Shown here: piece after piece, positions 19,670-25,202 of the stretch
Layout of the letters: every line of letters begins with the position of its first letter
Numbering within the stretch: the stretch's first letter is position 1
NCBI GenBank assembly: GCA_964016885.1
Contig: OZ024742.1
Span: 191,704,001 to 191,768,000, forward strand
DNA from: Eledone cirrhosa
Lineage: Eukaryota
Length of the DNA: 64,000 bases
Reading direction: 5' to 3'
Notes under the pieces: generated by a model
The model's database searches: none
What the model was told of the DNA's origin: nothing
The model's input: the letters and a program-made list of their open reading frames with translations, nothing else
Translations under genes and position numbers: made by a program

Positions 19670-19730
<61 letters not shown>

Positions 19731-19964
19731 TATGCATGTATACGTACATACATATATGTATACAGACGTACAGTAGCATGCACATATATATATATATATA
19801 CATATATACATACATATGCATACAGGTACACATACATATATGCACGTATCAGTTTAGCGGCGCTAACGTCGCTTTGTTCGTTTGTAAACAAACTGAACAG
19901 CCTGAATTTATGCCATACGGTGTTAAGGCAACCACGTCACCTTTTTGTTCAACACTGACACAGG

Positions 19965-20009
19965 AACGATGTACTAGTTTCAAGCTTGTTAGCTATCATC
20001 AGCACCGTT
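19965..20009 (-). ncRNA. Type I hammerhead ribozyme (also 20432, 20899, 21366, 21833)
   Basis: AACGGUG-CUGAUGA-U AGC UAACAA GCU U-GAAA-CUA-GUA^-CAUCGUU. Confidence 0.88.
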
Positions 20010-22472
20010 TACCCATCTGCCAGATAGTTGAACGCGTCGAAAGTATATACTTTCCTTATGAAAATTAACGGCTGAGCAGCCTAATTTGCATATTGAGTGA
20101 GTTAAATCGGTCAGGCATACCGAAAACGATAAATTGAAACAAAATGAAAACGAAATTCCATTTCTCACTCTTAGTATGGCACTTACTTAAATGTAAGTAT
20201 GCATGTATACGTACATACATATATGTATACAGACGTACAGTAGCATGCACATATATATATATATATACATATATACATACATATGCATACAGGTACACAT
20301 ACATATATGCACGTATCAGTTTAGCGGCGCTAACGTCGCTTTGTTCGTTTGTAAACAAACTGAACAGCCTGAATTTATGCCATACGGTGTTAAGGCAACC
20401 ACGTCACCTTTTTGTTCAACACTGACACAGGAACGATGTACTAGTTTCAAGCTTGTTAGCTATCATCAGCACCGTTTACCCATCTGCCAGATAGTTGAAC
20501 GCGTCGAAAGTATATACTTTCCTTATGAAAATTAACGGCTGAGCAGCCTAATTTGCATATTGAGTGAGTTAAATCGGTCAGGCATACCGAAAACGATAAA
20601 TTGAAACAAAATGAAAACGAAATTCCATTTCTCACTCTTAGTATGGCACTTACTTAAATGTAAGTATGCATGTATACGTACATACATATATGTATACAGA
20701 CGTACAGTAGCATGCACATATATATATATATATACATATATACATACATATGCATACAGGTACACATACATATATGCACGTATCAGTTTAGCGGCGCTAA
20801 CGTCGCTTTGTTCGTTTGTAAACAAACTGAACAGCCTGAATTTATGCCATACGGTGTTAAGGCAACCACGTCACCTTTTTGTTCAACACTGACACAGGAA
20901 CGATGTACTAGTTTCAAGCTTGTTAGCTATCATCAGCACCGTTTACCCATCTGCCAGATAGTTGAACGCGTCGAAAGTATATACTTTCCTTATGAAAATT
21001 AACGGCTGAGCAGCCTAATTTGCATATTGAGTGAGTTAAATCGGTCAGGCATACCGAAAACGATAAATTGAAACAAAATGAAAACGAAATTCCATTTCTC
21101 ACTCTTAGTATGGCACTTACTTAAATGTAAGTATGCATGTATACGTACATACATATATGTATACAGACGTACAGTAGCATGCACATATATATATATATAT
21201 ACATATATACATACATATGCATACAGGTACACATACATATATGCACGTATCAGTTTAGCGGCGCTAACGTCGCTTTGTTCGTTTGTAAACAAACTGAACA
21301 GCCTGAATTTATGCCATACGGTGTTAAGGCAACCACGTCACCTTTTTGTTCAACACTGACACAGGAACGATGTACTAGTTTCAAGCTTGTTAGCTATCAT
21401 CAGCACCGTTTACCCATCTGCCAGATAGTTGAACGCGTCGAAAGTATATACTTTCCTTATGAAAATTAACGGCTGAGCAGCCTAATTTGCATATTGAGTG
21501 AGTTAAATCGGTCAGGCATACCGAAAACGATAAATTGAAACAAAATGAAAACGAAATTCCATTTCTCACTCTTAGTATGGCACTTACTTAAATGTAAGTA
21601 TGCATGTATACGTACATACATATATGTATACAGACGTACAGTAGCATGCACATATATATATATATATACATATATACATACATATGCATACAGGTACACA
21701 TACATATATGCACGTATCAGTTTAGCGGCGCTAACGTCGCTTTGTTCGTTTGTAAACAAACTGAACAGCCTGAATTTATGCCATACGGTGTTAAGGCAAC
21801 CACGTCACCTTTTTGTTCAACACTGACACAGGAACGATGTACTAGTTTCAAGCTTGTTAGCTATCATCAGCACCGTTTACCCATCTGCCAGATAGTTGAA
21901 CGCGTCGAAAGTATATACTTTCCTTATGAAAATTAACGGCTGAGCAGCCTAATTTGCATATTGAGTGAGTTAAATCGGTCAGGCATACCGAAAACGATAA
22001 ATTGAAACAAAATGAAAACGAAATTCCAAGCTTGAAACTAGTACATCGTTCCTGTGTTAGTGTTGAACAAAAAGGTGACGTGGTTGCCTTAACACCGTAT
22101 GGCATAAATTCAGGCTGTTCAGTTTGTTTACAAACGAACAAAGCGACGTTAGCGCCGCTAAACTGATACGTGCATATATGTATGTGTACCTGTATGCATA
22201 TGTATGTATATATGTATATATATATATATATGTGCATGCTACTGTACGTCTGTATACATATATGTATGTACGTATACATGCATACTTACATTTAAGTAAG
22301 TGCCATACTAAGAGTGAGAAATGGAATTTCGTTTTCATTTTGTTTCAATTTATCGTTTTCGGTATGCCTGACCGATTTAACTCACTCAATATGCAAATTA
22401 GGCTGCTCAGCCGTTAATTTTCATAAGGAAAGTATATACTTTCGACGCGTTCAACTATCTGGCAGATGGGTA

Positions 22473-22517
22473 AACGGTGCTGATGATAGCTAACAAGCTT
22501 GAAACTAGTACATCGTT
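22473..22517 (+). ncRNA. Type I hammerhead ribozyme (also 22940, 23407, 23874, 24341, 24808; truncated copy 22027-22050)
   Basis: aacggtg ctgatga tagctaacaagctt gaaa ctagta catcgtt. Confidence 0.88.
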
Positions 22518-25149
22518 CCTGTGTCAGTGTTGAACAAAAAGGTGACGTGGTTGCCTTAACACCGTATGGCATAAATTCAGGCTGTTCAGTTTGTTTACAA
22601 ACGAACAAAGCGACGTTAGCGCCGCTAAACTGATACGTGCATATATGTATGTGTACCTGTATGCATATGTATGTATATATGTATATATATATATATATGT
22701 GCATGCTACTGTACGTCTGTATACATATATGTATGTACGTATACATGCATACTTACATTTAAGTAAGTGCCATACTAAGAGTGAGAAATGGAATTTCGTT
22801 TTCATTTTGTTTCAATTTATCGTTTTCGGTATGCCTGACCGATTTAACTCACTCAATATGCAAATTAGGCTGCTCAGCCGTTAATTTTCATAAGGAAAGT
22901 ATATACTTTCGACGCGTTCAACTATCTGGCAGATGGGTAAACGGTGCTGATGATAGCTAACAAGCTTGAAACTAGTACATCGTTCCTGTGTCAGTGTTGA
23001 ACAAAAAGGTGACGTGGTTGCCTTAACACCGTATGGCATAAATTCAGGCTGTTCAGTTTGTTTACAAACGAACAAAGCGACGTTAGCGCCGCTAAACTGA
23101 TACGTGCATATATGTATGTGTACCTGTATGCATATGTATGTATATATGTATATATATATATATATGTGCATGCTACTGTACGTCTGTATACATATATGTA
23201 TGTACGTATACATGCATACTTACATTTAAGTAAGTGCCATACTAAGAGTGAGAAATGGAATTTCGTTTTCATTTTGTTTCAATTTATCGTTTTCGGTATG
23301 CCTGACCGATTTAACTCACTCAATATGCAAATTAGGCTGCTCAGCCGTTAATTTTCATAAGGAAAGTATATACTTTCGACGCGTTCAACTATCTGGCAGA
23401 TGGGTAAACGGTGCTGATGATAGCTAACAAGCTTGAAACTAGTACATCGTTCCTGTGTCAGTGTTGAACAAAAAGGTGACGTGGTTGCCTTAACACCGTA
23501 TGGCATAAATTCAGGCTGTTCAGTTTGTTTACAAACGAACAAAGCGACGTTAGCGCCGCTAAACTGATACGTGCATATATGTATGTGTACCTGTATGCAT
23601 ATGTATGTATATATGTATATATATATATATATGTGCATGCTACTGTACGTCTGTATACATATATGTATGTACGTATACATGCATACTTACATTTAAGTAA
23701 GTGCCATACTAAGAGTGAGAAATGGAATTTCGTTTTCATTTTGTTTCAATTTATCGTTTTCGGTATGCCTGACCGATTTAACTCACTCAATATGCAAATT
23801 AGGCTGCTCAGCCGTTAATTTTCATAAGGAAAGTATATACTTTCGACGCGTTCAACTATCTGGCAGATGGGTAAACGGTGCTGATGATAGCTAACAAGCT
23901 TGAAACTAGTACATCGTTCCTGTGTCAGTGTTGAACAAAAAGGTGACGTGGTTGCCTTAACACCGTATGGCATAAATTCAGGCTGTTCAGTTTGTTTACA
24001 AACGAACAAAGCGACGTTAGCGCCGCTAAACTGATACGTGCATATATGTATGTGTACCTGTATGCATATGTATGTATATATGTATATATATATATATATG
24101 TGCATGCTACTGTACGTCTGTATACATATATGTATGTACGTATACATGCATACTTACATTTAAGTAAGTGCCATACTAAGAGTGAGAAATGGAATTTCGT
24201 TTTCATTTTGTTTCAATTTATCGTTTTCGGTATGCCTGACCGATTTAACTCACTCAATATGCAAATTAGGCTGCTCAGCCGTTAATTTTCATAAGGAAAG
24301 TATATACTTTCGACGCGTTCAACTATCTGGCAGATGGGTAAACGGTGCTGATGATAGCTAACAAGCTTGAAACTAGTACATCGTTCCTGTGTCAGTGTTG
24401 AACAAAAAGGTGACGTGGTTGCCTTAACACCGTATGGCATAAATTCAGGCTGTTCAGTTTGTTTACAAACGAACAAAGCGACGTTAGCGCCGCTAAACTG
24501 ATACGTGCATATATGTATGTGTACCTGTATGCATATGTATGTATATATGTATATATATATATATATGTGCATGCTACTGTACGTCTGTATACATATATGT
24601 ATGTACGTATACATGCATACTTACATTTAAGTAAGTGCCATACTAAGAGTGAGAAATGGAATTTCGTTTTCATTTTGTTTCAATTTATCGTTTTCGGTAT
24701 GCCTGACCGATTTAACTCACTCAATATGCAAATTAGGCTGCTCAGCCGTTAATTTTCATAAGGAAAGTATATACTTTCGACGCGTTCAACTATCTGGCAG
24801 ATGGGTAAACGGTGCTGATGATAGCTAACAAGCTTGAAACTAGTACATCGTTCCTGTGTCAGTGTTGAACAAAAAGGTGACGTGGTTGCCTTAACACCGT
24901 ATGGCATAAATTCAGGCTGTTCAGTTTGTTTACAAACGAACAAAGCGACGTTAGCGCCGCTAAACTGATACGTGCATATATGTATGTGTACCTGTATGCA
25001 TATGTATGTATATATGTATATATATATATATATGTGCATGCTACTGTACGTCTGTATACATATATGTATGTACGTATACATGCATACTTACATTTAAGTA
25101 AGTGCCATACTAAGAGTGAGAAATGGAATTTCGTTTTCATTTTGTTTCA

Positions 25150-25202
<53 letters not shown>

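What the first reader, a model, noticed from the sequence alone, without database searches (positions are those of the whole stretch)
19727..25155. 5.4-kb near-perfect palindromic array of 467-bp hammerhead units
About 4.9 units on one strand and 6.7 on the other, giving 11 intact ribozymes. Even the internal TA microsatellite keeps constant length, so the insertion is very young. The only variant I noticed (gtgttag vs gtgtcag, ~22057) is in the first unit after the junction. Read-through transcription would form kilobases of dsRNA, a potential ADAR or siRNA substrate.
Basis: partly seen in the sequence, partly recalled or inferred. Interest (0 to 1): 0.75.

Follow-up and report, generated by a model that had tools for sequence, protein, structure and literature searches.

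The report
Two-armed ribozyme repeat, Penelope-type insertion
This 5.4-kb back-to-back array is one young copy of a small non-coding repeat that carries a predicted self-cutting RNA motif; it was likely pasted into a TA repeat by a Penelope-type jumping-gene enzyme that would have copied one RNA circle many times from both sides of a DNA break, a route proposed in print that such copies make testable.

Summary
Observation confirmed: a 4.93-unit minus arm (19727-22028) and a 6.70-unit plus arm (22027-25155) of a 467-bp unit, 11 type I hammerhead motifs, one variant (22058). The ribozyme-sense strands diverge from a 2-bp overlap, and both outer ends are 3' ends joined to (TA)n, 65 nt apart on the unit. 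It is not a one-off. The window holds two more hammerhead arrays (310 and 468 bp) and a coding GIY-YIG Penelope-like element (PLE) with the same layout. For the 310-bp family, public contigs show TA-joined ends clustered at two sites. Best reading: a non-LTR retrozyme inserted by PLE machinery priming from both sides of a cut, probably on a circular RNA. Retrozymes and inverted PLE insertions are each published; my searches found no paper on two-armed retrozyme arrays. This scan reported them before on other DNA of this genome. New lead: in 3 of 3 arrays the longer arm stops in hammerhead loop II, 17-19 nt past the cleavage site (P about 0.001-0.004, post hoc). Cleavage, transcription, circularity, dsRNA and read support for this array's junctions are untested.

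The parts
19644..19726 (.). (TA)n-rich target, left of the insertion
19727..22028 (-). Left arm, 4.93 units, ribozyme-sense on minus strand; 5' end at unit position 279, 3' end at position 245 (counted from the cleavage site), sharing 2 nt with the TA run
22027..25155 (+). Right arm, 6.70 units; 5' end at unit position 451 (hammerhead loop II), 3' end at position 310, sharing 3 nt with the TA run
22027..22028 (.). Central inversion junction, 2-bp overlap (CA)
22058..22058 (+). Only variant base of the array (C to T on the sense strand)
22473..22517 (+). Type I hammerhead motif; predicted cleavage after 22510; repeats every 467 bp to 24808-24852 (6 copies)
21833..21877 (-). Same hammerhead motif on the minus strand; repeats every 467 bp down to 19965-20009 (5 copies)
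22391..22398 (+). ATGCAAAT (octamer motif, name recalled) in every unit, inside a 59-nt block 78% identical to the 468-bp sister family; candidate internal promoter element
22633..22742 (+). Internal (TA/CA)-rich imperfect inverted repeat predicted to form a long RNA hairpin just upstream of the inner 3' end site (one per unit)
25156..25489 (.). (TA)n-rich target, right of the insertion
8531..10630 (.). Sister array B: 310-bp hammerhead unit with no blastn match to A, 5.6 units minus + 1.2 units plus, in (TA)n
27513..28921 (.). Sister array C: 468-bp unit homologous to the 467-bp unit, 1.3 units minus + 1.7 units plus, in (TA)n, 7 variable sites
37084..39388 (.). Coding PLE-like insertion with the same two-armed layout: about 2.0-kb minus arm (GIY-YIG ORF, 31-nt tail) + 0.29-kb plus arm, in (TA)n

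Best explanation
The array is a single young insertion of a non-coding, hammerhead-bearing 467-bp repeat (a non-LTR retrozyme) in a (TA)n tract, likely made by the reverse transcriptase-endonuclease of a Penelope-like element that would have primed on both sides of the cut and copied a probably circular unit RNA several times on each side. Steps: (1) units are transcribed, cut by dimeric hammerheads and ligated to 467-nt circles (inferred by analogy with coral, mussel and axolotl retrozymes); (2) a PLE protein cuts both strands of (TA)n (inferred; shown in vitro for an anole PLE on AT-rich DNA); (3) each target 3' end primes at one of two internal sites 65 nt apart (ends shown; priming inferred); (4) reverse transcription runs 4.9 and 6.7 rounds (arm lengths shown; rounds inferred); (5) the two cDNA ends join over 2 bp and are filled in (junction shown). 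No host function is implied. My odds: about 0.9 for PLE-type two-ended insertion, about 0.6 that the template was a circle.
For: Layout: sense strands diverge, both outer ends are 3' ends in (TA)n with 2-3 shared bases. Same layout in arrays B and C and in a coding element with a GIY-YIG domain (Pfam E 2.6e-07; Atlas neighbours GIY-YIG/HTH_animal at 0.95-0.98) whose two arms end 31 nt apart. PMC8557442 (passages) describes an adjacent inverted 5'-truncated copy, a 30-40-bp tail at one end and (TA)n bias as PLE traits. PMC11167929 (parts 1-2 of 4) shows a PLE protein cutting and extending both strands and starting at two adjacent internal RNA sites. For family B, 6 of the 15 loose-end rows shown (53 not shown) are TA-like joins on the 3' side, all at unit position 139 (12 contigs) or 167-172 (6 contigs). 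Homologous A and C end at equivalent places (245/310 and 230/301), and an old A-family fragment ends in TA near the outer site. For one template: both arms of A are identical; array B carries the same three minority letters in every unit of both arms (two are A-to-G on the sense strand). The unit folds as a stable circle (z -7.2 vs 40 shuffles) with an extended helix I kept between A and C despite sequence change. Circle-templated tandem cDNA by PLEs is the model proposed in PMC7229834 (parts 2-4 of 6) and PMC4209133 (parts 1-2 of 4).
Against: No expression, cleavage or circle was shown. The 65-nt offset in A is longer than the 30-40-bp PLE tail. No sequence link between the unit and a coding PLE was found in the window, so the partner is unidentified. 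In PMC11167929 uncut RNA was the main substrate and hammerhead mutants still inserted, which fits a linear multimer as well; that paper also found no homology between primer and start site, so the 2-3 shared bases may be chance (110 of 467 positions end in TA or AT). In the 2026 preprint only 1 of 9 predicted Xenopus retrozymes cleaved. The minority-letter shares rest on capped contig depths from runs that may be another individual. The fixed stop in loop II is not predicted by a simple rolling-circle model.
Confidence: 0.62

Rival explanations
1. Same PLE-type two-ended insertion, but the template was a linear, uncut multimeric transcript of a source array, with its 5' end (transcription start) in hammerhead loop II.
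For: In 3 of 3 arrays one arm's 5' end lies in loop II, as a complete cDNA of a fixed RNA 5' end would. A and C share an octamer-containing block; newt satellite 2 has an internal snRNA-type promoter (PMC2220036, passage). Uncut RNA was the main substrate in vitro; axolotl has multimeric RNAs.
Against: Needs an uncut RNA of 6.7 or more identical units although tandem hammerheads of this type cut best as dimers. Family B lacks the octamer yet stops at the same place. The second arm's 5' end is not near the first arm's start site (31, 92 and 216 nt away), unlike simple twin priming on one linear RNA.
Confidence: 0.2
2. A short two-armed insertion (like array C) was later lengthened in place by unequal crossover or slippage.
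For: Local amplification is the model in the 2026 preprint; an earlier scan note reads a 64-kb array that way (e1-8668821, not tested here).
Against: The most diverged array has the fewest units (C: 7 variable sites in 1407 bp, 3 units) and the near-invariant ones the most (A: 1 in 5429, 11.6 units; B: 0 in 2099, 6.8 units); only three cases.
Confidence: 0.09
3. Assembly artefact: a fold-back read or mis-sized repeat.
For: Perfect identity and long inverted repeats are hard to assemble (PMC8557442 passage). Read support for this array was not obtained.
Against: The flanks are not mirrored, the arms are out of phase, and the ends fall at equivalent sites in homologous families; older diverged examples (C, the coding element at 84% arm identity) show the same layout. 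The unit itself is in public runs (0.98 of sampled words in the best run).
Confidence: 0.06
4. DNA-level inversion or fold-back repair of an existing head-to-tail satellite.
For: 2-bp overlap at the centre fits microhomology repair.
Against: Would not make both outer ends 3' ends at recurring sites, nor the same polarity in 4 of 4 insertions.
Confidence: 0.03

Closest known systems
Metazoan non-LTR retrozymes (PMC7229834, parts 2-4 of 6 read; bioRxiv 10.64898/2026.07.22.740005, parts 1-3 of 5 read; PMC7761336, passages)
   Same: Non-coding tandem units, each with a type I hammerhead; GC 37%; self-paired circular fold; one-pair helix III with palindromic cap as in newt/axolotl Amex1 and a U-U pair at the base of helix II as in Amex2; coexistence with PLEs.
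   Different: 467 bp is slightly above the 150-450 bp range of the 2020 paper (inside the 51-972 bp of the preprint). Two opposed arms with PLE-type ends are not described in the text seen: 'inverted' occurs 0 times in PMC7229834 and only in references in the other two. Supplements were not read and could show such loci.
EN+ Penelope-like elements, Neptune/Naiad-type (TA)n inserters (PMC8557442, passages; PMC11167929, parts 1-2 of 4; PMC4209133, parts 1-2 of 4)
   Same: Tandem copies plus an adjacent inverted 5'-truncated copy, two alternative 3' ends, (TA)n target, type I hammerhead. PMC4209133 notes hammerhead pairs 100-700 bp apart on opposite strands in Schistosoma; PMC8557442 notes non-autonomous Chlamys elements with multicopy head-to-tail insertions.
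   Different: No ORF; both arms are multi-copy; end offset 65 nt rather than 30-40; no homology to a coding PLE found in the window.
Newt satellite 2 (PMC7229834 text; PMC2220036 passage; original papers not read)
   Same: Tandem unit with a dimer-dependent hammerhead; an internal snRNA-type promoter is reported there and an octamer motif is present here.
   Different: Promoter function here is untested; no inverted arms reported in the passages seen.

Membership tests
Non-LTR retrozyme | Tandem units each with a complete type I hammerhead motif | tested here: met
   11 of 11 full units; no Rfam hit at gathering score
Non-LTR retrozyme | Non-coding, GC below 50% | tested here: met
   GC 37%; only low-complexity stop-to-stop frames of 120 aa or more overlap the array
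Non-LTR retrozyme | Unit of about 150-450 bp | tested here: inconclusive
   467 bp: above the 2020 range, within the preprint's 51-972 bp
Non-LTR retrozyme | Highly self-paired circular fold | tested here: met
   Circular MFE -151.9, z -7.2 vs 40 shuffles, partly due to the AT hairpin; the 56-nt hammerhead alone gives z -0.49
Non-LTR retrozyme | Self-cleavage of the RNA | not testable with these tools
   Needs in vitro transcription
Non-LTR retrozyme | Expression as linear and circular monomers | not testable with these tools
   No RNA holder listed
Penelope-like element (autonomous) | RT plus GIY-YIG ORF | tested here: not met
   No such ORF in the array; it is not an autonomous PLE
PLE-type insertion footprint | Tandem copies with an adjacent inverted 5'-truncated copy | tested here: met
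PLE-type insertion footprint | (TA)n target, no discernible target duplication | tested here: met
PLE-type insertion footprint | Two 3' ends 30-40 bp apart (tail) | tested here: inconclusive
   A: 65 nt, C: 71 nt, B: 28-37 nt, coding element: 31 nt; family-wide fixity seen for B only
Non-autonomous PLE derivative | Homology to the pLTR of a coding PLE | tested here: inconclusive
   None within the 64-kb window; whole genome not held

The most novel reading that the evidence does not exclude
These arrays are direct genomic records of rolling-circle reverse transcription of a ribozyme-made RNA circle by a dimeric Penelope-type enzyme working from both strands of one cut, with an ordered asymmetry: the arm primed at the downstream site runs longer and stops at a fixed point in hammerhead loop II, so the ribozyme fold itself marks where copying ends or the two cDNAs are joined.
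Probability: 0.3. Interest if true: 0.75.

Novelty: new variant of a known kind. Interest (0 to 1): 0.5.

Why it matters
Papers propose, on co-occurrence and phylogeny, that PLEs mobilise animal retrozymes through circular RNA, and they call the origin of PLE tandem/inverted structures undefined. Young two-armed arrays record start sites, stop sites and template identity, so both questions become testable by counting loci and by reconstitution. The locus itself is most likely a selfish insertion without host function.

Tried and rejected
Rfam scan: 0 matches at gathering score. Folding of the 56-nt hammerhead alone: not better than shuffles. Whole genome not held, so no genome-wide counts. The centre junction of array B had no cover in 4 of 4 runs' contigs; contigs drop rare forms and the runs may be another individual, so this counts neither way. 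Raw-read run X22: 0 reads laid on array B. Pattern scan of metagenome contigs for the block shared by A and C: 0 matches. Pfam found a family for 1 of 6 PLE-like ORF pieces. Pol III transcription of the unit looks unlikely: four T4 runs on the sense strand (terminator rule recalled). Simple L1-type twin priming on one linear RNA fits poorly (see first rival). The 22058 variant is C to T on the sense strand and in one unit only, so it is not an A-to-I mark and not a template-borne change. Earlier-finding look-ups by nearness and by sequence returned nothing. Literature searches without a description of two-armed retrozymes: (listings only, unless a paper is cited as read); the octopus repeat paper PMC13282606 has 0 occurrences of hammerhead or ribozyme (passages).

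Full report
Observation. Against a circular 467-bp unit, the left arm (19727-22028) has 0 mismatches over 4.93 units and the right arm (22027-25155) 1 mismatch (22058) over 6.70 units; the arms overlap by 2 bp (TRF). Eleven identical hammerhead motifs lie 6 on + and 5 on -. The longest inverted pairing is 2308 nt with a 293-nt spacer. One variant in 5429 bp gives a divergence of 0.018% (95% range 0.0005-0.10%). If the octopus calibration in PMC13282606 applied (JC 0.09 = 25 My; passage) that is about 0.05 My, at most 0.3 My. The host taxon was not tested here, and polishing or conversion could lower the count.

The unit. It is non-coding, 37% GC. The hammerhead is type I: a 7-bp helix I that continues past an internal loop, a 4-bp helix II with loop AACA and a U-U pair at its base, and a one-pair helix III whose CUAG is palindromic. 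PMC4209133 describes this build as the usual metazoan type that cuts as a dimer. Rfam has no hit at gathering score and the 56-nt motif alone folds no better than shuffles, so the call rests on the core motif, the helices, and their conservation in the diverged 468-bp sister, where the extended helix I persists with other letters. The circular monomer folds with z -7.2 against 40 shuffles, partly through a long AT hairpin. A 59-nt block with ATGCAAAT is 78% identical between the 467- and 468-bp families; the motif name is recalled, the lead came from note e1-8803865, and promoter function is untested.

Polarity and ends. Ribozyme-sense strands run outward from the centre. Both outer ends are therefore 3' ends; they join (TA)n at unit positions 245 and 310 counted from the cleavage site, sharing 2 and 3 bases with the run. 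The inner ends are 5' truncations at 279 and 451.

Internal controls. Array B (8531-10630, 310-bp unit without blastn match to A, 5.6 + 1.2 units) and array C (27513-28921, 468-bp homologue, 1.3 + 1.7 units) have the same polarity and TA target. So does a coding element at 37084-39388: its ORF has a GIY-YIG domain (1 of 6 ORF pieces scanned had a Pfam hit) and a Cys-x4-Cys-x2-Cys linker like that which PMC8557442 gives for Neptune/Nematis, and its long arm ends 31 nt beyond its short arm. PMC8557442 lists these traits for PLEs: adjacent inverted 5'-truncated copy, 30-40-bp tail, (TA)n bias. For family B, runs X1, X3, X8 and X22 laid 782, 596, 216 and 0 records; of 15 loose-end rows shown (53 not shown), 6 are TA-like joins on the 3' side, at position 139 (12 contigs) and 167-172 (6 contigs), and 1 is a TA join on the 5' side. 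The window's own B ends are 130-139 and 167. Fixed ends for the 467 family itself rest only on homology with C (230/301) and on an old fragment ending in TA near the outer site (42030-42165).

Template. Both arms of A are the same sequence. Array B differs from the majority of its family in the runs at three sites (sense A to G at 259 and 295, A to T at 292) and carries those letters in all units of both arms. The window letter holds roughly 0.4-0.9%, 2-4% and 20-59% of summed depth, but depths are capped per contig and the runs may be another individual. This fits one template for both arms; it does not prove a circle. Unit number falls with divergence across A, B and C, the opposite of later growth in place, on three cases.

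Mechanism. A PLE protein from the anole cuts and extends both strands of AT-rich DNA, starts at two adjacent internal RNA sites that match the genomic tail ends, and is predicted to be a dimer (PMC11167929). Applied here, each side of a cut in (TA)n primes at one of two sites on the unit RNA, both cDNAs run several unit lengths, and their ends join over 2 bp. A circular monomer is the simplest source of 4.9 and 6.7 seamless identical units, as proposed in PMC7229834 and PMC4209133. Against it: uncut RNA was the main substrate in that in vitro system, only 1 of 9 Xenopus retrozymes cleaved, and the partner PLE was not identified.

Unexplained lead. In 3 of 3 arrays one arm's 5' end lies in hammerhead loop II: 17 nt (A; 15-17 given the overlap), 17 nt (B) and 19 nt (C; blurred by a 10-nt filler) upstream of the cleavage site. 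With uniform ends, a spread of 2, 4 or 6 nt arises with P 0.0007, 0.002, 0.004; the pattern was noticed after the fact. In each case it is the arm that begins at the downstream 3' site, and that arm is the longer one in 4 of 4 insertions including the coding element. Possible causes: a pause at the folded ribozyme, a nick in the cDNA hairpin loop, or a transcription start there. The last would favour a linear template. The short summaries of earlier findings shown to me do not mention it.

The dsRNA idea. Only a read-through transcript from outside would fold back; unit-driven transcripts are the same sense on both arms. No RNA data bear on it. Read support for this array's junctions and unit number also remains untested.

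Novelty. Retrozymes, their link to PLEs and inverted PLE insertions are published. Searches and term counts found no description of two-armed retrozyme arrays; supplements and subscription papers were not seen. My reading was recorded, which then showed that this scan had reported the same layout at other loci of this genome, including the 467-bp family; those notes are leads, not support. Verdict: real feature, new variant of a known kind, interest 0.5.

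Noticed in passing
window 8531-10630: Second two-armed hammerhead array (310-bp unit, 0 variants); loop II reads UACG here but AACA in the family majority, as in the 467- and 468-bp families.
   Followed up: yes
window 27513-28921: Older two-armed array of a 468-bp homologue; one of its two full hammerheads has a 3-bp deletion in helix II/loop II; 10-nt filler at the centre resembles left-arm sequence.
   Followed up: yes
window 34920-36913, 37084-39388, 28954-29134: Three insertions of one Neptune-like PLE family (clade label by motif only), all ending in (TA)n; three arm ends at the inner site, one with a 31-nt tail.
   Followed up: partly
window 13065-17972: PLE-like RT and endonuclease frames (13193-15660, broken by a stop and frame changes; family label recalled, no Pfam hit) with a type I hammerhead motif at 17891 about 85 bp before the TA run; related pieces at 33857-34865, 43393-44612 and 58976-60765.
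   Followed up: partly
window 57650-57833 and 61391-61587: Inverted terminal pair (84%) around one of those PLE-like frames, with a hammerhead-like motif at 57710.
   Followed up: no
window 7897-8413, 10972-11506, 25916-26269, 46735-47228, 54909-56099: Further short inverted pairs, mostly beside TA runs; probably old two-armed insertions.
   Followed up: no
window 42030-42165: Old 5'-truncated fragment of the 467-bp family (85% identity) ending in (TA)n near the outer 3' site.
   Followed up: partly
window 29482-30520, 54779-56582, 60358-60549, 63515-63759: Dispersed ~190-bp repeat family, 78-92% identical, probably a tRNA-derived SINE (label recalled).
   Followed up: no
   Followed up: no
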